Source: Octopus sinensis (Eukaryota). Taken from it: 64,000 nucleotides of DNA. The stretch spans positions 135,718,001 through 135,782,000 of the forward strand of contig NC_043000.1 of assembly GCF_006345805.1 (NCBI RefSeq), given 5' to 3'. Below the pieces are notes generated by a model, which saw only the letters and a program-made list of their open reading frames with translations, was not told where the DNA came from and searched no databases. The translations under genes and the position numbers were made by a program. Shown here one piece after another: positions 64-59,513 of the stretch. How positions within the stretch are numbered: the stretch's first letter is position 1; each line of letters starts with the position of its first letter.

Positions 64-470
64 GCGAGACAGAAGCAACAAGAATGGATAAGTTTTTAGT
101 ACAATCGTTTCATACAAAGAAAGGCTTTATTAAAAGTGCAAAAATTGCAGCATATAAACGTGTCCCGTACTCATCAGCAATACATGTGAGTTTCTCTAGA
201 CATCTTAGTGGTTGAGGCTATACTCATGAAGTAATGTGATAATTAAGTAACATAAACAGATTTCCAAATCTGTTTATGTTACTTAATATCTACATTACTT
301 CATGAGTATAGCCTCAACCATTAAGAGGTCTAGAGAACTCACATGTATTTTAGCTGATGAGTAGGTACGGGACACGTTATATGCTGCAATTTTTGCAACT
401 TTTAATAAAGCCTTTTTGGTATGAAACGTTTGTACTAAAAACTTATCCATTCTTGTTGCTTCTTTCTCGC
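64..470. mobile_element. Fold-back HHR-bearing PLE/retrozyme-like insertion (~200-bp inverted arms)
   Basis: Arms mirror around AACAGATTT-CC-AAATCTGTT (centre 264-265); each arm carries an HHR core; right end abuts (TA)n. Confidence 0.75.
348..440 (+). ncRNA. Type I hammerhead motif with long stem II insert
   Basis: TTTTAG-CTGATGA(354-360)...GAAAC(423-427)-GTTT-GTA-CTAAAA; stem I TTTTAG/CTAAAA; minus-strand copy at ~93-180 has stem II GTAC/GTAT. Confidence 0.65.
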
Positions 471-6345: not shown

Positions 6346-6838
6346 ACAAAAGTGTGTAAATGTATATACCTGTATATGCATATGAACCCGCTCTTTATGT
6401 ACACGTATAATACATACACGTGCTTTTGAAAAACAACGATGACAATTTGTATAGGCATGGAATATCTTAAATAACGAATGTTCAATATCTGAATATATAA
6501 AAAAAGAATCCTGATTCATCCTGTATTTACGTACAACATGAGCGCATGCGTGTGTGAATGTTTACATGCAAACGTACACAGATGATTTGGTCTATATTCA
6601 GAGAAATACTGGAGAGTAGCAAAAGGTCTGAAAATCAGATTAAGGTATAACTTCGTGGGTTAGATCATATATTGATATAGACGCAGGGTGTGGCTGTGAG
6701 GTAAGAAGTTTGCATCCCAACCATATGGTTCTGGATTCAGTCCCACTACGTGGTACCTTGGACAAGTGTCTTCTACTATAACCTCGGGCCTACCAAAGCC
6801 TTGTGAGTGGATTTGGTAGACGAAAACTGAAAGAGCTC

Positions 6839-6879
<41 letters not shown>

Positions 6880-7152
6880 TATATAATATATATATATATA
6901 TAAAAATTAAGGGTAGAAATTGATATTAGTCAATTAAAACCAGTGGTCTAGCACATTAAAAAGAATCCGAAGATTAAAATATTTATATATACCAATTAAG
7001 GACTGAACACGAAAAGGTGGACAGTCAACATGCTAGATAAAGACGTCAAATCGCCATTCTCCACAAAGATTTTGTTCTCAAATAAAAATAAAATTCAGCA
7101 CAACCTAAAGCAATGGATGAGACAAAAGAAATATACTAAATGGAATAATCAC

Positions 7153-7214
7153 CTACGTACCGTACAGTTTCAGCTATTAATATCACAAGGATATCTGTAG
7201 CTTCGTCAGCGTAG
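7153..7214 (-). ncRNA. Canonical type I hammerhead ribozyme (inverted copy)
   Basis: Reverse complement of 7522-7583. Confidence 0.88.
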
Positions 7215-7521
7215 TTTGTGTTCAGTCCTTAATTGGTATATATAAATATTTTAATCATCGGATTCTTTTTAATGTGCTAGACCACTGGTTTTAATTGACT
7301 AATATCAATTTCTACCCTTAATTTTTAAATATGAAATATATGTTCTCAAACCGATAAATTGACTGCTGCTAATTATTAGCTGCAGGCTGGTTTTTCGATT
7401 ATCAGCGCGCCAAAAGTAGAGGCATTTGAAAGATACATCCGAACGTAATAAGTTGTACTTTTTGCATGCGGGACTCCGGTACCGTTTTTCATCTAGTACA
7501 GCATATTATGCTCATAACAAA

Positions 7522-7583
7522 CTACGCTGACGAAGCTACAGATATCCTTGTGATATTAATAGCTGAAACTGTACGGTACGTAG
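7522..7583 (+). ncRNA. Canonical type I hammerhead ribozyme
   Basis: CTACG-CTGACGA-AGCTA...TAGCT-GAAAC-TGTACG-GTA-CGTAG; all three stems pair; predicted cut after 7578. Confidence 0.88.
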
Positions 7584-7768
7584 GTGATTATTCCATTTAG
7601 TATATTTCTTTTGTCTCATCCATTGCTTTAGGTCGTGCTGAATTTTATTTTTATTTGAGAACAAAATCTTTGTGGAGAATGGCGACTTGACGTCTATATC
7701 TAGCATGTTGACTGTCCACCTTTTCGTGTTCAGTCCTTAATTGGTATATATATATATATATTATATAT

Positions 7769-7802
<34 letters not shown>

Positions 7803-8473
7803 AATATATATATATATATTTGTGTGTGTTTGACAACAGATTTGGTGTGCCTATGTCCCCGAAACTTAGCGGTTCGGCAAAAGAGACCGATATAATAAGT
7901 GCTAGGCTTACAAAGAATAAGCCCTGGGGTCGATTTGTCCGACTAAAGGCGGTGCTCTAGCATGGCTGCAGTCAAATGATTGAAATAAGTAAAAGAACAG
8001 AAAAACAGAAAATACTACAGGGTAACAAAATAATATTGCTCGTTAGCAGAGTACAACATAAATATGGATTTCACGAGAGAACCTATATATGATGATTCGA
8101 TCTACAAGAAATAGCATCAAGATGTTCCCCAAAGTTCAACCTTGATATTTTATAGTAAGAGGAACACATTGGTTGATGCTGTCGTAGAAAACCCCCAAAC
8201 GGAGGATAATTAAACATGGAACTTTTTTCTATCAAGTTTAAACTAGGTTGGTGATGGTGAACCGATAAAACGCATGTTTGCAGTGACATGCCACGGTCTT
8301 TTAGGTGATACACTGTGTACTTTGAGAAGAAAAAATGCAAGTGATACACTAATAACAGGTTTATTAAAGCAATTAAAATTTCAACATGATGGGCTAAAAA
8401 TGTCCACCTTTCCTGACCTAGGGCTAAACAACAGCAACAAAGGACACAGTGGATGATATTAGCTTTGTCAAAG

Positions 8474-9270
8474 ACGTCGAGCTGGCAGAATCGTTTGCAC
8501 GCCGGGCGAAATCCTTAGCGGTATTTCGTCTGCCGCTATGTTCTGAGTTCGAATTCCGCCGAGGTCAACTTTGCCTTTCACCCTTCGGGGTCATCTAAAT
8601 AAGTACCAGTTACGCACTGGAGCCGATGTAATCGACTTAATCTGTTTGTCTGTCCTTATTTGTCCTCTCTGTGTTTAGCCCCTTGTGGGTAGTAAAGAAA
8701 TAGGTATTTCATCTGTCGCTACGTTCTGAGTTCAAATTCCACCGAGGTCGACTTTGCCTTTCATCTTTCGGGGTCGATAAATAAAGTACCAGTTACGCAC
8801 TGGAGCCGATGTAATCGACTTAATCTGTTTGTCTGTCCTTATTTGTCCTCTCTGTGTTTAGCCCCTTGTAGGTAGTAAAGAAATAGGTATTTCGTCTGCC
8901 GTTACGTTCTGAGTTCAAATTCCGCCGAGGTCGACTTTGCCTTCATCCTTTCGGGGTCGATAAATTAAGTACTAGTTACACACTGGGGTCGACGTAATCG
9001 ACTTGATCCCTTTGTCTATCGTTGTTTGTCCCCTCTATGTTTAGCCCCTTGTGGGCAATACGAAATAAGAAATAAGAATCGTTAGCACGCGGTGCAAAAT
9101 GCTAAGCGACATTTCGTCTGTCTTAACGTTCTGAGTTCAAATTCTGCAGGGTGTCAACTTTGCCTGTTATCCCTTCAGGGTGGATAAAATAAATGCCAGC
9201 TTAACAGTGGAGTTGATTTAACTGATTTATCCCCTCCCCAGAACTTGCTGACCTTATGCCAACATTTGAG
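8474..9270 (+). mobile_element. SINE family B (Nin/Deu-like domain) tandem array
   Basis: One head and three ~183-bp bodies with GCCTTTCATCCTTTCGGGGTCGATAAATTAAGTACC-like motif, then a degenerate copy. Confidence 0.8.
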
Positions 9271-11656: not shown

Positions 11657-12259
11657 ACAATTCACCGCCAATGTAATCAGAGAAACAAAAAAGACAGGAA
11701 GGTCATGGTTGGTAATGCTTTTCATCATAGGTCGACAAGGTCAATTCTAACATATGACTTTGCAGCCAGAACATTGCTACAATCTCCACCGCCGCCACGT
11801 CGATAACACCAGCTTATCTAACTTACAATCTAAATACAGTTCTATATCAATACTTTACTTTATGTTGTACTCGTACAACCAGTAATGTAATATTATAAAC
11901 TTAATAACACACCAAAGCCTTTCAAACCTATCAACGCTGAGAGGGAAAAGATTATTACATATGAACTAATGATTATATTGTATTTAATTTATCATAACAT
12001 CATGTTACCGAACCCATGGTATTACATTTCTGTTTATAGTCATTCACATATATACATAATACATACACATAATACATACATATATACATACATACATACA
12101 TACAAACGTACGTTCAAACATACATACATATAAATATATAATCGTGTGTGCGCGTATATGTGTGTGTCTGTGTGTACCTTTTCGTATAGCCAGATGAAGT
12201 TCCGGTGAACAAAACTAATTCCCATATTTAGTCCCCTAATTGATGTTTATTTATACATA

Positions 12260-14740
12260 CAAACAATATGGATATTATCAAACAATATGGATATTGTTTG
12301 CTTCACAAACAATATGGATATTATCCATAATGTTAATGTGATGCCGACAATGATCTCGGATCACAACATAATAGAGCTGTCTATGTATGGAACAAAAGCC
12401 CCCGCAGACACACAGCCTATACGAAGCACCCACCATCTCTCCAACTTAAACTTTCATAAAGCCAACTGGAAGTCGATTGAGAAAGAGATCCTCAAACAGG
12501 ATTGGCCTGAATGTCCTCCTCACCGGACATAAACATGAAACACAAACACTTCATGTCCATAATACAAGCCATATGTGACAAAATGTCCCAATGTGCAGGG
12601 CCAGCACACACAAGAACAAAAACAGGATCCCTAGAGAAAGGAGGATTCTTATGAGACGACGGACAAGGATTGCAAACCGCCTGAGCAAGCACACCAAAAG
12701 TGGTGAGAAGTCTCGGCTCGAAAGAATGCTAATGGAAACTGAGAAAAGTCTACATCAGTCCCATGAAAAGGAGAGAGCAGATAAAGAAGCTTGGGTAATA
12801 GAAAATATAAAATCAAACCCTAAAGCTTTCTTTAAGTTTGCCAAAGAGACAGCCACAGTGCACCAGAGAATAGGACCTCTCTTCCAAAAAGATGGCTCTC
12901 TCACAGGAAATCCCACGAGGATAAGTGAAATACTGAACGAACAGTTCCAAAGTGTGTTCACTACACCTCTAGGACACAGGCAAGTAAACAACCCAGAAGA
13001 ATTCTTTGCCACTTTACCAGCGGCCAAAGAGACAAAAATTGAGTACATCAACATCGAAGAAGATGATATCACACTAGCCATTGATGAGATTGACACAAAC
13101 TCAGCTGCTGGACCTGATGGATTCCCAGCGATCCTTCTCAAATCGTGCAAACGAGCCCTTGCAAAACCGCTACAGCTTCTTTTTCAGAGCTTTCTTGCAA
13201 GTGGTAAGCTCCCAGTCAAACTGAAAGAGGGGGTAATATGCCCTATCCATAAGGGAGGTAGCAGAGCAGATGCTAAAAATTATAGGCCTATCTCTCTGAC
13301 CTCACACATCAGCAAAGTCATGGAACGAATAGTCCGTAAGAAACTAATGTTCCTTGAAGAAAATGACTTACTGTCTGACACCCAGCATGGATTTCGACCA
13401 GGTAGAGGCTGCCTAACACAGCTCCTGCAACACTATGACTGGGTGTTGAAACAGCTACTAAATGGCTCAAATGTGGATGTAATATATCTTGACTTTGCAA
13501 AAGCCTTTGATAAAGTCGACCATGGTATGATCTGTCACAAACTGCGTGGTCTCGGCATAGGCGGGAAACTTGGAGAGTGGCTGCACAACTTCCTAAAAGA
13601 CAGAAAACAGGCAGTTGTGAGCAATGGAGCCACCTCCAGGGAAACGCAAATAACAAGCGGTGTCCCACAGGGCACTGTCTTGGGGCCACTGATGTTCATA
13701 GTGGCCCTTTCAGACATGCCTTCAGTTGCTACGATGACCACCCTTGCTAGCTATGCAGATGACACAAAAGTCTCCCACGCAATACAAACCCTGAAATATT
13801 GCGCATCTGCAACATGAGCTGGACACAATATACAGGTGGGCTGAGGACAACAACATGCAGTTTAATGCAGGTAAGTTCCAGGCCCTGCGCTACTGGCACA
13901 CAAAGGTAAATGACGTGAAGACTGGATACACTGGCCCAGGAAGAATTGCAATCCCTGAGTCAAAATCAGTGCGTGACCTGGGCATTGACATGAGCAATGA
14001 TGCATCTTTCCAAATGCATATTGCTAATCTGGTGATAAAATGCAGACGGCTAGCTGGATGGATTCTCCGAACTTTCAGAACAAGAGAGAAGGAGACACTG
14101 ATGGTCCTATGGAAAACATTTGTCCTCAGCCGCTTGGACTACTGCTCCCAACTTTGTCACCACACAATATAAAACAAACAGCAGAACTCGAAGCAACTCA
14201 GAGAAGCTACACAAAGAAAATCGTCTCAATGCAAAATGTCAGCTACTGGGAAAGACTGAAGGTATTAAACCTCTTCTCCCTGGAGCGGAGGCGGGAGAGA
14301 TATGCAGTGATATACATCTGGAAAATCCTGGAGGGTCTTGTCCCAAACTTTGGCATTCAAAGTTACTCCAACCGCAGAACGGGGCGCCGCTGCGTGGTGC
14401 CAAGGATTCCAACATAACATCAAAATACAGGTCCAGATACTGCAACAGCTTGGGTTTCAGAGGACCACAGCTCTTTAACATCCTCCCTAAATGCCTGAGA
14501 GACTTACATGGTGTGGATGTGGGTTTCTTTAAAACTAAACTGGATCTCTTCTTGTTGGGAGTCCCAGATGAACCTACCTCACGACAGGAGACACGGATGC
14601 GGGCAGCAGCATCGAACTCCCTTGTTGATCAAGTGCCACATATCAGAGGTGGATTCACAAACTAGTGTAGCTCATTCAGCGGTGGTGCCCCAGCATGGCC
14701 GCGGCCTTCGGGCTAAAACATTTTTAAGGATTTAAGGATT
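12260..14740 (+). mobile_element. 5'-truncated CR1-group LINE (APE C-terminus plus reverse transcriptase), frameshifted
   Basis: SDHNII, AGPDG, NYRPISLTS, QHGFR, YLDFAKAFDKVDH, GVPQGTVLGP, YADDTK; tail (TTTAAGGA)n; probable TSD ATTTATACATA at 12249 and 14738. Confidence 0.92.
12591..13817 (+). pseudogene. LINE ORF2 reverse transcriptase fragment (408 aa)
   Basis: RT motifs through YADD; continues in other frames to 14665. Confidence 0.9.
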
Positions 14741-15737: not shown

Positions 15738-16705
15738 ACAGGGTGCGATGGGTAGATTGTCGCCATTTTATTTTTTTTATTTTGTACATGCGCATTCTTT
15801 TACTCTTTTACTCTTTTACTTGTTTCAGTCATTTGACTGCGGCCATGCTGGAGCACCGCCTTTAATCGAGCAACTCGACCCTGGGACTTATTCTTTGTAA
15901 GCCCAGTACTTATTCTATCGGTCTCTTTTGCCGAACCGCTAAGTGACGGGGTCATAAACACACCAGCATCGGTTGTCAAGCGATGTTGGGTATACAAACA
16001 CAGACACACAAACACACACACACGCATATATACATATACATATATACGACGGGCTTCTTTCAGTTTCCGTCTACCAAATCCACTCAAAAGGGTTTGGTCA
16101 GCCCGAGGCTATAGTAGAAGACACTTGCCCAAGGTGCCATGCAGTGGGACTGAACCCGGAACCATGTGGTTGGTAAACAAGCTACTTACCACGCAGCCAC
16201 TCCTCGACTACATAGTATAGTAGGGTCAGTTCGGCACCGTCTGTAAGAAAAACAGCACCATGACGCAATTCACTCGGCCAGAAATTTGGAAACACCATGC
16301 TGTACTGCTTGGCATTCGCGCTGGAAGCTTCAATGTGAACGTTTCAGTGTTTAGGTGTCAATCCGAGGACAGTGCAGTATGACGACATGTACCGAGAGTG
16401 ATAAAAATCAAATATTCAGTCAACCTCATGGTGTTTGGAATTATTACTAGTGAAAGCGACGTTATGCCTCCATTCATCTTCCCACACTGCCTCAGACTCA
16501 ACATAGAAGCTTTCTTCAAGTGCCTGGACGTCAAAAGGTTGGCTGTTGGAAGACCCTATGTCTTGCAACCGGACTCTGCACCATTCCACACTTGCAAGAG
16601 GACCCAGCCATGGCTGTCAGACAATTTCTACGACCATATCTCCCCTAACAACAGGCCACCTAACTCCACAGACTACAACCCCCTTGATTATTATGTGTGG
16701 GGCCT
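15738..16705 (+). mobile_element. Tc1/mariner maT-type (DD37D) transposon remnant, internally deleted, interrupted by a SINE
   Basis: QPDSAPFH...PPNSTDYNPLDYYVWG with 37 residues between the last two Asp; N-terminal MTQFTRPEIWK at ~16260; TA-CAGGGTG candidate end. Confidence 0.75.
15797..16204 (-). mobile_element. SINE family A
   Basis: Reverse complement of family A. Confidence 0.85.
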
Positions 16706-16809
16706 CTTTTGGATTCGTGACCGCTACATCTTATCACACTTCGATAGCTATACATTTGCAATCCAAGAAGAGGTTACTACTACGAAATACCTAATAATAA
16801 ATATTTATG

Positions 16810-16915
16810 TGGAAGACATCACACATGTGATTAGCTGCTGCCCAGAAATATCTTCAACGCATTACTTCCATATGCGACACAACGGCGCAAAATCAATTTA
16901 CAATGCCATTCTATA
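16810..16915 (+). pseudogene. RLE-type LINE zinc-knuckle fragment
   Basis: EDITHVISCCPEISSTHYFHMRHN resembles CCHC plus RHN/RHD motif. Confidence 0.5.
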
Positions 16916-17439
16916 TCCAGATTATAAATTCATATTTATACCAATAATTATTGCCTAAGTGACAAACTGGATAAGCTAGAGTTTTCAGAAAAAGAAACCA
17001 ACAAACTCGCATATTACAATTGCAAATTGTAAGTAGAACAGTAAAAATGTGTAAGACGTTGCTCGAGTATATAATGTGACATTGCTTTTGTTATCTACAT
17101 TCCAACAATGGAGCTTTGTATCTTTGTTAGAAATCATCTCCTTCCTCGGAGGAAGAATTTAGATGATTAATAACAGGAGACAACAAAATTATACTCATCG
17201 GCTATTTACAATGCTATCTGCAGGAAGGATTGCCCTAGCGTTTACATCAAAGGCATATCAGAACCAGAATGTATTCACACCTTTCAAAGCAACTATTCGA
17301 CCTTTCGGAATCGATAAAATAAGTAGCAGTCAACAAGTGGGGTTGATGTAATCGACTAACACCCGGCCACCAAAATTTCAGGCCTTTTGAGCTTACAGTA
17401 GAAAGGATTATTACTTCTATTGTTTTTCTTTTTTTTTAT

Positions 17440-20606: not shown

Positions 20607-21024
20607 AAGGTGGTGAGCTGGCAGAAACGTTAGCACGCCGGACGAAATGCGTAGCGGTATTTCGTCTGCCGTTACGTTCTGAGTTCAAATTCCGCCGAGG
20701 TCGACTTTGCCCTTCATCCTTTCGGGGTCGATAAATTAAATACCAGTTACGCACTGGTGTCGATATAATCGACGTAATCCGTTTGTCTGTCCTTGCTTGT
20801 CTTCTCTGTGTTTAGCCCCTTGTGGGCAGTAAAGAAATAGGTATTTCGTCTGCCGTTACGTTCTGAGTTCAAATTCCGCCGAGGTCAACTTTTCCTTTCA
20901 TCCTTTCGGGGTCGATAAATTAAGTACCGGTTACATACTGAGGTCGATGTAATTGACTTAATCCCTTTGTCTGTTCTTGTTTGTCTCATCTGTGTTTAGC
21001 CCCTTGTGGGTAATAAAGAAATAA
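20607..21024 (+). mobile_element. SINE family B dimer with TSD
   Basis: Head plus two bodies; AAGAATA(G/A)TAGCAAAATT on both sides. Confidence 0.85.
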
Positions 21025-22067: not shown

Positions 22068-22280
22068 CTTCCAAAATGTCTAAAAGATCTTCATGGTGCG
22101 GATGTAGGTGTCTTTAAACGAAAGTGGATCTCCAGATGAGCCTACCTCACGGCAGGAGGCACAGACGAGGGCAGCAGTATCAAACTCCTTCATTCACAAA
22201 ATGCTACATAGCAGACGACGTTTCAATTTATGAAGGTGTAGCTCAGCCACGGTGGTGCCCTAGCATGACCGCAACTTTAA
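22068..22280 (+). mobile_element. 3' fragment of CR1-group LINE
   Basis: LPKCLKDLHGADVGVFK and GGTGGTGCCCTAGCATGACCGC tail. Confidence 0.75.
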
Positions 22281-22608
22281 AGTTTCACGTTCCCGTTCGT
22301 CGGACGAACGAGAACGTGAAGCTCTGAATAACAGTTTTTGTGATATCCTTGGAGATTTATTAATAAAGTATATATATATATATATATAATCAATATAGGG
22401 AGGCAAAAAAATTTTGTAGAATTCTTTTGCCCCCAGCGGCCTAGTGGAAAAAATTAAATAGTCATAAACCATTTTTAAGTTCAATATCACAATCAAGGAA
22501 CGGCCATAATAGGCCATTCACCCACTAGAAATAACAGCCAAAAAGCTTCAACCGCAAATACATTAATTCTGTAAACCAGGAGAAAATTAAAAAAAATTTA
22601 CCCTGAAA

Positions 22609-22712
22609 TTCCTTATACGATGCACCGTTTCGTCTACTGTTTAATGGTAAACTATCCTGATTAATTAAATCAAGCCAATCTACCATAGGCCCTTAGATTC
22701 ATCAGTAAGGAA
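22609..22712 (-). ncRNA. Type I hammerhead ribozyme, extended stem II
   Basis: TTCCTTA-CTGATGA-ATCTA...TAGAC-GAAAC-GGTGCATC-GTA-TAAGGAA; 7-bp stem I, near-palindromic stem III. Confidence 0.82.
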
Positions 22713-23097
22713 TAGCCAAATCGGAACAGATATTTTTCACGAGGCATTCACGTCCATGCCTCGCCAATATCTGACCTAAAATTTTCAAATCGTCGCACTC
22801 GCGCCAAATTTATCGGCAGCAAATAAATATAAGCCGCCGATTCCATTACGGAACTAACCAGAAAATTCATAATTAATCAATATAGGGAGGCAAAAAAATT
22901 TTGTAGAATTCTTTTGCCCCCAGCGGCCTAGTGGGAAAAAATTAAATAGTCATAAACCATTTTTAGTTCAATATCACAATCAAGGAACGGCCATAATAGG
23001 CCATTCACCCACTAGAAATAACAGCCAAAAAGCTTCAACCGCAAAATAACATTATTCTGTAAACCAGGAGAAAATTAAAAAAACATTTACCCTGAAA

Positions 23098-23202
23098 TTC
23101 CTTATACGATGCACCGTTTCGTCTACTGTTTAATGGTAAACTATCCTGATTAAATTAAATCAAGCCAATCTACCATAGGCCCTTAGATTCATCAGTAAGG
23201 AA
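23098..23202 (-). ncRNA. Type I hammerhead ribozyme (second tandem copy)
   Basis: Same as 22609-22712. Confidence 0.82.
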
Positions 23203-23380
23203 TAGCCAAATCGGAACAGATATTTTTCACGAGGCATTCACGTCCATGCCTCGCCAATATCTGACCTAAAATTTTCAAATCGTCGCACTCGCGCCAAATT
23301 TATCGGCAGCAAATAAATATAAGCCGCCGATTCCATTACGGAACTAACCAGAAAATTCATAATTAATCAATATAGGGAGA

Positions 23381-23478
23381 CTGATGAATCTAAGGGCCTA
23401 TGGTAGATTGGCTTGATTTAATTTAATCAGGATAGTTTACCATTAAACAGTAGACGAAACGGTGCATCGTATAAGGAA
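23381..23478 (+). ncRNA. Truncated hammerhead lacking the 5' strand of stem I, at the inversion junction
   Basis: Inverted copy starts at CTGATGA (23381); GAAAC 23456-23460; GTA 23469-23471. Confidence 0.65.
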
Positions 23479-23603
23479 TTTCAGGGTAAATGTTTTTTTA
23501 ATTTTCTCCTGGTTTACAGAATTAATGTTATTTTGCGGTTGAAGCTTTTTGGCTGTTATTTCTAGTGGTGAATGGCCTATTATGGCCGTTCCTTGATTGT
23601 GAT

Positions 23604-49225: not shown

Positions 49226-49740
49226 CATCATCATCATTGTTCGACCGTGGTCGAGACAATGGAATTTACCATGCTACGCCAGACTTCACGGTCCATCATG
49301 GCATTACGGAGATCCTGTTGCTGGATGCCTGTATCCCTGGAGATTACATCAGGGTAGGAGATTGTGCGCCCTCTGGTATTGCGAGTAGATGGCTTCCAGA
49401 GGAGAAGAGTAGAAATTACCTCTTTTTCAGCTCTACAACAATGTCCAGCAAACTGGACTCTCCTACCTTTCACAAGAGATGACACAGGTGGTAGTTTCCC
49501 ATATATTTGCATTTTGGTTGGATGGCACTTCCACGAGAGATTTTGAGCTCTCATAAGGAGGCGAGTGTAGGTTCCATCCAACCGCCTCTCAAACTTCTTT
49601 GATAACGCCCAGGTTTCTGAGCCATATAGTAGAATTGGTTCGACTGTGGCTTTGAAGATTTCAAGTTTGAAGTCTCTACTTAGATTTGATGACCAGATCT
49701 TATGCATGTCATTACAGGCTGACCAGGCCATACCCTTTCT
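49226..49740 (-). mobile_element. Young 5'-truncated RTE-group LINE
   Basis: Open frame with LLYGSETW, RRVQFAGH and AMMDREVWR; (TGA)n tail at the stop codon; TSD AGATCTCTCTAT at 49214 and 49741. Confidence 0.85.
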
Positions 49741-50264
49741 AGATCTCTCTATAGAATATACACCCTCAAGTATACACACATATGCAGACTCGCACATAGG
49801 ATAAAATGCGTGCAGACAAACGGTTAGTTAAGCTATAAACCATGACTGTTATAATTCAAGTAACTTGTAGTTCTTCGGAATTGACGGTGATTTCGGACGA
49901 TTCCTGTTCCTATCAGCATATATGTATACAATTATGTGCTTTGAATACAGTATTAGAGCATTTCTGACAACGTTGATTTTTCTAACACCCAAGTCAGATT
50001 TAGTGTAGATGATAGTTTACTTGCTCGAAATACGGATTAGAAAAACAGCCGACAACTGATGAAGGATCGTTCTTTGTGTTGTTTGTCTTGTTTTCCATTT
50101 GTTTCTTTCGTTGTTCGCAAAAAGTCCATATTCCATGTCCTTGCACTTCGTAGTTTTCGTTGTTTATGTTTTGTGACGTCCTGTGCCCACATATGCAAAT
50201 GTATGTACGTAAATATCTAAGTATGTACATATACGTATGTATATATGCATATATATATATACAT

Positions 50265-58672: not shown

Positions 58673-59513
58673 TAAATGGACTGATCAATAACGGATTTAA
58701 AGTACGGAGAATGAAGCCGCTCGGCAAAAATTGACCTTGAACAATAAGTTTTAACGTTCTAGCTTACTTCCGCTGTGTACAGCAGTGCTTGGAAGGAAGG
58801 TGTGTAGCGTGTGACCATGACAGAGAAAACTGAGCAGAGAATCTGCATCAAATTTTGCCAAAATCTTAGCGATACATGCCCAGAGGCCTATGCAAAGTTT
58901 TCAAAAAATTTTCATCGTTCTCGACACAATCAAGATTTTGTGCAGCTGAAACCCGAGTGTATTCTTGGTCAACTGAAAGCAGTTTTGGCACAAACTTGGC
59001 AGACACGTGTCTCGTACCTAAATCTTCAGTGATAATGGACTGAAGTGAACCGTAACTAATCTGCACATCCTCTGATAAATCACGGATAGTGATTCGACGA
59101 TTTCCCCTCATAGCTGCACGCACATCTGCGATGTTTTTCTCAGTTCTGCTGGTTGCAGATCTTCCAGAATCTTCGTTAAAATCGACATATTTTCGGCTAT
59201 CTTGGAAACGTCTGAAACACTCGTACACTTGTGTGCGGCTCATACACTTCTCTCCATACACTTTGTGCAATTTTGCGCTGACCGCTGAGCAGGTATCACC
59301 ATGATAACTCACTCTGTCACGGTCAAAGCGGTGATCACACGCTACACACCTTCCTTCCAAGCACTGTTGTAAACAGCAGAAGTGGGATAGAACGTTAAAG
59401 CTTAGTGCGCATGGACAGTGGAGTTAAGGCCAATTTATGCCAAGCAGCTTTACTTTCCGTGCTTTAACTTTGTTACTATGGCAACAGTGCGGATACTTAT
59501 TGATCAGACCTCG
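58673..59513. mobile_element. Mariner derivative built from two convergent 5' ends
   Basis: Plus strand MTEKTEQRICIKFCQ; minus strand HTH region through SAKFVPKLL; TIR CGAGGTCTGATCAATAAG next to TA; no catalytic domain. Confidence 0.8.

What the first reader, a model, noticed from the sequence alone, without database searches (positions are those of the whole stretch)
6902..7750. Second retrozyme family: 508-nt permuted monomer with a canonical HHR, nested in a SINE
Seen: the plus-strand part begins and ends with the same 25-mer (7218, 7726). The inverted arm reads through that junction, so the template was circular or tandem. The HHR is fully canonical and identical in both arms. The element lies in the internal (TA)n of a family A SINE. 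Inference: SINE-borne TA tracts act as landing sites, and this element is younger than the SINE.
Basis: partly seen in the sequence, partly recalled or inferred. Interest (0 to 1): 0.8.

Follow-up and report, generated by a model that had tools for sequence, protein, structure and literature searches.

The report
Penelope-style insertion of a ribozyme retroelement
A short mobile element with no protein gene but a hammerhead-ribozyme motif sits as two head-to-head copies in the TA repeat of a SINE and was likely pasted there by the enzymes of a Penelope-like retrotransposon, which makes it a new family of a known kind (animal retrozymes).

Summary
The direct arm (7218-7750) is one 508-nt unit plus 25 nt. 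The inverted arm (7219 to 6902) reads through the unit junction. A type I hammerhead motif is identical in both arms, and the whole lies in the (TA)n of a SINE.

The unit is therefore a family trait.

Best reading: a solo copy of a non-autonomous PLE-type (non-LTR) retrozyme, likely copied in trans from RNA not cut at the ribozyme. The target is (TA)n in general; only 1 of 3 hammerhead elements in the window is in this SINE.

Leads: the 8-mer CCTTAATT precedes both ends, and in two unrelated families the direct arm is whole units plus 16-25 nt, which fits a circular template. Cleavage, expression and the partner PLE are untested. New member of a known kind.

The parts
6684..6840 (+). 5' half of the host SINE (start approximate)
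   Evidence: 79-89% BLAST matches to 8 other window places; alignment
6841..6901 (.). left (TA)n target tract, inside the SINE's internal microsatellite
6902..7219 (-). inverted arm: unit positions 7517 to 7725, then 7218 to 7327; reads through the unit junction; its 3' end faces the left TA tract
   Evidence: alignment to the doubled unit, 4 internal differences
7153..7214 (-). second copy of the type I hammerhead motif, identical to 7522-7583
7218..7219 (.). head-to-head junction; 2 nt belong to both arms (microhomology)
7218..7750 (+). direct arm: one 508-nt unit (7218-7725, 35% GC, no ORF over 66 aa) plus 25 nt
7218..7242 (+). first copy of the terminal 25-mer
7227..7234 (+). CCTTAATT ahead of end site 1 (repeated at 7735-7742 and, in the arm, at 6994-7001); candidate initiation signal (inferred)
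7243..7327 (+). tail: the roughly 85-90 nt between the two recurrent 3' ends
   Evidence: loose ends into (TA)n behind 7249 and behind 7320-7332 in other copies
7316..7323 (+). CCTTAATT ahead of end site 2 (in the arm at 6905-6912)
7328..7516 (+). internal segment, where an autonomous PLE would have its ORF; predicted to pair with 7600-7663 in the circle
   Evidence: contiguous with the tail in contigs of 3 of 4 runs; circular fold
7522..7583 (+). type I hammerhead motif: helix I 7522-7526/7579-7583, core 7527-7533 and 7565-7568, helix II 7534-7538/7560-7564 extended, helix III 7568-7577 self-complementary; predicted cut between 7578 and 7579
   Evidence: helix II change on both sides among other copies
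7726..7750 (+). second copy of the 25-mer; its last 6 nt merge with the TA tract
7745..7819 (.). right (TA)n target tract
7820..7996 (+). 3' half of the host SINE; about 25 nt seen after the microsatellite in other copies are missing here

Best explanation
This is one copy of a repeated, ORF-less 508-nt element with a type I hammerhead motif, likely a non-autonomous Penelope-like retroelement (non-LTR retrozyme) inserted in trans by a PLE reverse transcriptase-endonuclease. Inferred steps: (1) the enzyme nicks both strands of a (TA)n tract; (2) each target end primes reverse transcription inside the RNA, at one of two sites about 89 nt apart that both follow CCTTAATT; (3) one cDNA runs 533 nt (a full unit plus 25) and the other about 318 nt, both through the ribozyme cut site, so the template was not cut there, and I put it at about 55:45 for a re-ligated circle over an uncut tandem transcript; (4) the two products are joined head to head over 2 nt of microhomology. 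At tandem source loci the ribozyme would cut multimers to unit length, likely as a dimer through its self-complementary helix III. This copy has a single sense ribozyme and is likely a dead-end offspring. Shown: the anatomy, the nesting, the closed unit in other copies, recurring ends. Inferred: enzyme, template form, cleavage, expression.
For: Anatomy. Closed unit in other copies: 7326/7327 is bridged with 31 or more letters on each side in 3 of 4 runs (X4 record 25, 7226-7571, 8 differences; X12 record 11; X1 record 1, 20 differences), and one X2 contig goes back 508. In all 4 runs the whole depth at 7257 carries a letter other than the direct arm's, so contigs over that place come from other copies. 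Recurrent ends: loose ends behind 7320-7332 with mixed flanks (18 and 14 contigs in X1, agreement about 0.6; 9 in X2 with a TA-run consensus) and behind 7249 into TA (2 in X2, 1 in X12). No ORF: longest stop-to-stop frame 66 aa, no Pfam family at its cut-off for 6 of the 19 frames listed. Circle fold -125.8 kcal/mol, 0 of 40 shuffles as low, z -3.75. Helix II changes on both sides (7536 and 7562, equal depth in X12). Helix III palindrome cofolds at -12 kcal/mol. The same layout occurs in two unrelated window elements. Literature: inverted 5'-truncated copy, tail and (TA)n bias are PLE traits (PMC8557442, PMC3846280); a PLE protein cuts and extends both strands, starts internally at two sites and prefers uncut RNA (PMC11167929).
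Against: No autonomous partner was identified, so the enzyme is assigned by layout only. The tail is 85-90 nt against 30-40 nt in described PLEs. Only one contig, in one run, shows the tandem joint, and no listed piece spans the whole stretch. Summed contig depth is about 100 times higher over 7668-7725 and 7218-7325 than over 7415-7520 in X1, and a 1094-nt X4 contig shares only 7271-7332: the end segment is shared with other, possibly longer, elements. This copy's ribozyme is predicted to misfold as a monomer (-16.1 against -13.6 kcal/mol) and Rfam does not recognise it. Selection on the RNA is only weakly seen: 12 of 39 variants break a predicted pair against 17.1 expected (P 0.04), and 0 of 10 hammerhead variants fall in the 11 core positions (P 0.12). 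The antisense strand also folds better than shuffles (z -2.9). In one study 8 of 9 predicted Xenopus retrozymes did not cleave in vitro (10.64898/2026.07.22.740005).
Confidence: 0.75

Rival explanations
1. Same element and same PLE enzyme, but the template is a linear, uncut tandem transcript from a genomic source locus; the hammerhead is a passenger inherited from the pLTR and no circular RNA is needed. (This overlaps the best explanation and differs only in template form.)
For: In vitro, ribozyme mutants do not impair PLE insertion and unprocessed RNA is the main substrate (PMC11167929). The monomer is predicted to misfold. Core conservation is not significant. A stop next to the initiation site could be a pause at that structure or endonuclease resolution.
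Against: The direct arm equals whole units plus 16-25 nt in both closed-unit elements of the window. The unit folds as a self-paired circle that leaves the hammerhead accessible at a cost of 2.5 kcal/mol. Helix II changes on both sides among copies.
Confidence: 0.35
2. The locus is only the debris of an autonomous PLE: two 5'-truncated end pieces joined by chance at 7326/7327, so that the 508-nt monomer exists in this copy alone.
For: The inverted arm stops at 7327, so within the window that junction is seen once. The terminal segment has far more contig depth than the internal one, and a longer contig shares only 7271-7332.
Against: The junction is bridged in three different sequence variants from 3 of 4 runs and two organism codes. 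The segment after it is predicted to pair with 7600-7663 and shows no coding remnant.
Confidence: 0.05
3. The RNA was mobilised by a LINE, SINE-fashion, and the inversion is LINE-type twin priming at a microsatellite.
For: LINE reverse-transcriptase-like remnants are in the window (12579-13817, 49234-49827, recognised by eye). LINE twin priming gives inverted 5' segments (recalled).
Against: No poly(A) or simple-repeat 3' tail of its own; both ends are internal sites of a closed unit; the arms overlap by 109 nt of template; both end sites recur in other copies.
Confidence: 0.1
4. The inverted arm is a later DNA-level event (fold-back repair) or an assembly artefact.
For: Long TA tracts on both sides are fragile and hard to assemble (general knowledge).
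Against: The arm holds the 25-mer-to-tail read-through, which the direct arm cannot supply at its right end. The arms differ at 4 places, two where the arm and two where the direct copy agrees with the other contigs. Two unrelated elements in the window have the same head-to-head layout.
Confidence: 0.04

Closest known systems
Metazoan non-LTR retrozymes (Cervera and de la Pena 2020, PMC7229834; Li, Clavereau and Pollet 2026, 10.64898/2026.07.22.740005)
   Same: Type I hammerhead in a non-coding repeated unit, GC under 50%, predicted self-paired circle, solo monomer copies dispersed beside tandems.
   Different: The unit (508 nt) exceeds the 150-450 bp of the first paper but lies within the 51-972 bp of the second. 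The main text of neither paper describes head-to-head arms ('inverted' occurs 0 times in the first and once, in a reference, in the second). Expression and cleavage are untested here.
[quoted passage not shown]
   Same: Hammerhead in the terminal repeat, adjacent inverted 5'-truncated copy head to head, tail at one end only, (TA)n target with no discernible target duplication.
   Different: No RT or GIY-YIG ORF: about 275 nt stand between the repeats. The tail is 85-90 nt, not 30-40 nt. Naiads lack canonical hammerheads.
Poseidon from Anolis carolinensis, studied in vitro (PMC11167929)
   Same: Two internal 3' end sites downstream of the hammerhead; both target ends extended; template not cut at the ribozyme.
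   Different: There the start sites lie in an AC-rich stem-loop without homology to the target. Here both ends fall at a TA that matches the target and follow CCTTAATT.
Non-autonomous Chlamys PLEs such as MRC1 (PMC8557442)
   Same: [quoted passage not shown]
   Different: Green-algal, and Chlamys elements mostly lack canonical hammerheads.

Membership tests
non-LTR retrozyme | type I hammerhead motif in the unit | tested here: met
   core and three helices at 7522-7583; not recognised by Rfam; A-U at 10.1-11.1
non-LTR retrozyme | no protein-coding capacity | tested here: met
   longest frame 66 aa over the doubled unit; 6 frames scanned, none at a Pfam cut-off
non-LTR retrozyme | unit of a few hundred bp, GC under 50%, no LTR/PBS/PPT layout | tested here: met
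   508 nt, 34.8% GC; PBS and PPT not searched for separately
non-LTR retrozyme | multi-copy family with a closed unit | tested here: met
   1144, 12, 419 and 102 contigs laid in 4 runs, most 90-99% alike; 7326/7327 bridged in 3 of 4 runs; one contig goes back 508
non-LTR retrozyme | tandem arrays somewhere in the genome | tested here: inconclusive
   one X2 contig and the window's own inverted arm read through the junction; contigs are too short to show arrays; no genome is held
'active' retrozyme locus (Li et al. 2026) | two or more consecutive units, each with a complete hammerhead | tested here: not met
   1.05 units with one sense hammerhead; filed as a solo monomer copy, not as an active locus
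non-LTR retrozyme | predicted highly self-paired circle | tested here: met
   64% paired, z -3.75, 0 of 40 shuffles; antisense z -2.9
non-LTR retrozyme | self-cleavage and accumulation as circular RNA | not testable with these tools
   needs assay and RNA data; the runs laid were contigs only
autonomous Penelope-like element | RT plus GIY-YIG ORF | tested here: not met
   not filed as an autonomous PLE
PLE-type insertion | adjacent inverted 5'-truncated copy, head to head | tested here: met
PLE-type insertion | 30-40 bp tail at one end | tested here: inconclusive
   a one-sided extension exists and both ends recur, but it is 85-90 nt
PLE-type insertion | (TA)n or AT-rich target | tested here: met
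   both flanks; TA-run loose ends in X2 and X12
non-autonomous PLE derivative | 3' end homologous to the pLTR of an autonomous family | not testable with these tools
   no genome held; no match for 3 short motifs in the PMC8557442 supplement; a 1094-nt contig sharing 7271-7332 could not be read

The most novel reading that the evidence does not exclude
The locus records a PLE enzyme reverse-transcribing a ribozyme-made circular RNA: two target ends prime at a sequence signal (CCTTRATT, seen before three of the four ends of two unrelated families), one cDNA stops just after completing whole turns, and the other stops just past the ribozyme core. This would be insertion-level evidence for the proposed circle-to-genome step of animal retrozymes and would name a cis signal that makes a small RNA circle a substrate for PLE integration.
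Probability: 0.3. Interest if true: 0.68.

Novelty: new member of a known kind. Interest (0 to 1): 0.42.

Why it matters
That PLEs mobilise animal retrozymes has been argued from shared hammerheads, co-occurrence and pLTR phylogeny (PMC7229834; 10.64898/2026.07.22.740005). A young, ORF-less copy with the full PLE insertion signature, two recurrent end sites and a shared 8-mer gives exact predictions for an existing in vitro PLE assay (PMC11167929): where priming starts, whether a circle is used, and why head-to-head arms form. Apart from that it is an ordinary dispersed repeat with no sign of host function.

Tried and rejected
No whole genome is held, so the genome-wide survey and the empty-site check could not be run.

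Exact-pattern scans found nothing: metagenome contigs, viral contigs, prokaryote genomes. This is expected for an animal repeat and is no evidence.

Rfam: 0 matches at gathering score in the window; 6 matches up to E 10 over 6500-8200, none a hammerhead.

No RNA holder was listed. X12 is only guessed to be RNA and is not used as evidence of expression.

A 66-aa antisense frame (7536-7736) with a stretch that reminded me of an RT motif (recalled) gave only a sub-threshold DUF382 hit, E 0.033; rejected as chance.

No other copy of the unit lies in the window, and the 490-nt sister aligns no better than shuffles.

Earlier scan notes: 3 look-ups, nothing returned.

Summed contig depth was not converted to copy number, as the tool warns against it. 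The relaxed hammerhead scans missed the sister's motif, so they are not a census. A constrained dimer energy was not obtained (crashed); only the helix III duplex was scored.

Paper searches for hammerhead ribozyme with octopus or cephalopod listed no cephalopod retrozyme paper. The host taxon is my recalled guess from SINE and microsatellite make-up and was not tested.

Full report
OBSERVATION. The direct arm 7218-7750 begins and ends with the same 25-mer, 508 nt apart; the last 6 nt of the 25-mer are TA repeat and merge with the right flank. The minus strand from 7219 to 6902 aligns to the unit taken as a circle, from 7517 through 7725/7218 to 7327, with 4 differences in about 318 nt. The arms meet head to head and share 2 nt. 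Each arm's 3' end faces a TA tract. A type I hammerhead motif (7522-7583) is identical in both arms. Its core is complete, but pair 10.1-11.1 is A-U, helix III is weak and self-complementary (10-bp duplex between two copies, -12 kcal/mol), and the isolated motif is predicted to prefer a misfold by 2.5 kcal/mol. Rfam does not detect it.

NESTING. The two flanks are contiguous in 7 other SINE copies of the window, with only 66-112 nt of microsatellite between them. The host SINE is 84-89% identical to those 7 copies, while the arms are 98.7% identical, so the insertion is likely much younger than the SINE (gene conversion between the arms is not excluded). No target duplication can be read in (TA)n.

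IS THE UNIT REAL? Within the window 7326/7327 is seen only once, because the inverted arm stops there, so the direct arm could have been two truncated pieces joined by chance. No genome is held. One search listed 24 runs, of which 20 rows from 11 studies and 5 organism codes hold sampled words; I laid 4 of them (X1, X4, X2, X12; contigs only) on 7218-7750. Of the 32 pieces shown (1656 not shown), three bridge the junction with 31 or more letters on each side: X4 record 25 (7226-7571, 8 differences, 1 gap), X12 record 11 (7282-7419, 4 differences) and X1 record 1 (7282-7437, 20 differences). The X2 piece across it has only 23 letters on one side and is not counted. One X2 contig goes back 508. 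At 7257 the whole depth in all 4 runs shows the letter of the inverted arm, not of the direct arm, so contigs over that place come from other copies. The unit is therefore a family trait. Against a simple picture: summed contig depth (not a copy number) is about 100 times higher over 7668-7725 and 7218-7325 than over 7415-7520 in X1; loose ends show diverged subfamilies; and a 1094-nt X4 contig shares only 7271-7332. The end segment is thus common to many truncated or related elements, one of which may be the autonomous partner.

RECURRENT ENDS. Of 23 loose-end rows shown (91 not shown), several lie behind 7320-7332 (18 and 14 contigs in X1 with agreement about 0.6; 9 and 5 in X2; 1 each in X12 and X4) and behind 7249 (2 in X2, 1 in X12); the X2 rows at 7249 and 7320 and the X12 rows at 7249 and 7323 run into TA. 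Both ends of this copy are therefore preferred sites, about 89 nt apart. Both follow CCTTAATT, which occurs exactly twice in the unit; two random places of the unit share an 8-mer within 14 nt in 294 of 238,252 pairs (the motif was chosen after seeing it). CCTTRATT has 10 matches in the window against 6.1 expected, which is not an excess; 8 lie in this element or the sister, where it precedes one of the two ends.

RNA LEVEL. The unit has no frame over 66 aa and no Pfam family at cut-off in the 6 frames scanned. Folded as a circle it gives -125.8 kcal/mol, z -3.75, 0 of 40 shuffles; the antisense strand gives z -2.9. Among 39 listed variants, 12 break a predicted pair against 17.1 expected (P 0.04), one pair in helix II changes on both sides, and none of 10 hammerhead variants lies in the core (P 0.12). 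This is weak support for selection on the RNA. Cleavage and expression were not tested.

CONTEXT. The 490-nt element at 22387-23601 is unrelated in sequence but has the same layout on the minus strand: two units plus 16 nt, an inverted arm that begins 1 nt before the hammerhead core, TA on both sides. A third head-to-head hammerhead element lies at 64-470 and ends in TA on its right. Neither lies in this SINE family. SINE-borne tracts are 5 of 47 TA tracts once the two flanks of this insertion are counted as one. The target is (TA)n, not the SINE.

MECHANISM. The layout is the published PLE signature: an adjacent inverted 5'-truncated copy, a tail at one end, microsatellite targets (PMC8557442, passages; PMC3846280, passages). 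A purified PLE protein cuts and extends both strands of AT-rich DNA, starts inside the RNA at two sites that bound the tail, and uses mainly uncut RNA (PMC11167929, parts 1-2 of 4). I infer that a PLE enzyme acting in trans primed two cDNAs from the two target ends at the two sites and that they were joined head to head. Both arms cross the predicted ribozyme cut (7578/7579), so the template was an uncut multimer or a re-ligated circle. In both closed-unit elements the direct arm ends 16-25 nt after whole units, which is where a polymerase on a circle would meet its own start. With two cases, noticed after the fact, and a pause or endonuclease cut at the same site as alternatives, this tips the odds only slightly (about 55:45). 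The circle model itself was proposed in PMC4209133 (parts 1-2 of 4) and PMC7229834 (parts 2-4 of 6).

WHAT IT IS. It works like, and meets the testable features of, a non-LTR retrozyme, as a solo monomer copy. It fails the two-unit rule for an active locus (10.64898/2026.07.22.740005, parts 1-3 of 5) and is not an autonomous PLE. Non-autonomous PLE derivatives are known (PMC8557442). Word searches of the two retrozyme papers' main texts found no account of inverted arms; their supplements were not read (those of the preprint are closed) and may bear on this. Searches listed no paper on this family; the library lacks most subscription journals and repeat databases were not available. The host looks octopus-like to me (recalled, untested). 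If so, recently active Penelope families are reported in O. vulgaris (PMC13282606, passages and supplement list only).

VERDICT. A real, young insertion and a new family of a known kind. Its value lies in tying an ORF-less ribozyme repeat to PLE insertion anatomy and in giving exact predictions. Interest 0.42.

Noticed in passing
window 22387-23601: Sister element, unrelated in sequence: 490-nt unit twice plus 16 nt on the minus strand, inverted arm 23380-23601 starting 1 nt before the hammerhead core, TA on both sides; circle fold z -5.9 (antisense -5.8); its helix II starts with an A-C mismatch.
   Followed up: partly
window 64-470: Third head-to-head hammerhead element: arms about 205 nt, 87-92% complementary, long helix II, right end in TA 472-487; the left arm continues 63 nt to the window edge, possibly a tail.
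   Followed up: partly
run X4 record 26, matching window 7271-7332: A 1094-nt contig shares only part of the tail (8 differences in 62 nt) and runs on with other letters on both sides: a related longer element, perhaps the autonomous partner.
   Followed up: no
run X2, window 7576 and 7706: One contig switches strand between 7576 and 7706; 7576 is within 3 nt of the predicted ribozyme cut. Possibly another inversion junction; orientation not given.
   Followed up: no
window 7570-7575: Helix III variants in other copies tend to keep a self-complementary segment (a change at 7570 makes it a perfect palindrome; a 2-nt deletion gives a shorter one), as expected of dimer-type hammerheads; a change at 7573 does not.
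   Followed up: partly
window 7517 and 23380: In both closed-unit elements the inverted arm's 5' end lies just upstream of the hammerhead core (10 nt and 1 nt). Unexplained.
   Followed up: no
window 7237-7246: The end-site-1 sequence is TATA-box-like and is itself a short TA run, so it could serve as promoter element, priming microhomology, or target for the element's own kind (inference).
   Followed up: no
window 8520-9055 and 20656-21023: Tandem arrays of a 183-184 nt SINE-like unit, 2.9 and 2.0 copies.
   Followed up: no
window 12209-14665 and 49234-49827: Frameshifted LINE-like reverse transcriptase remnants, recognised by eye.
   Followed up: no
window 16383-16958 and 58866-59423: Transposase-like fragments (Tc1/mariner-like by eye).
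   Followed up: no
window 22276-22328: A 26-bp head-to-head palindrome just left of the sister element's TA tract, possibly the junction of another small inverted insertion.
   Followed up: no
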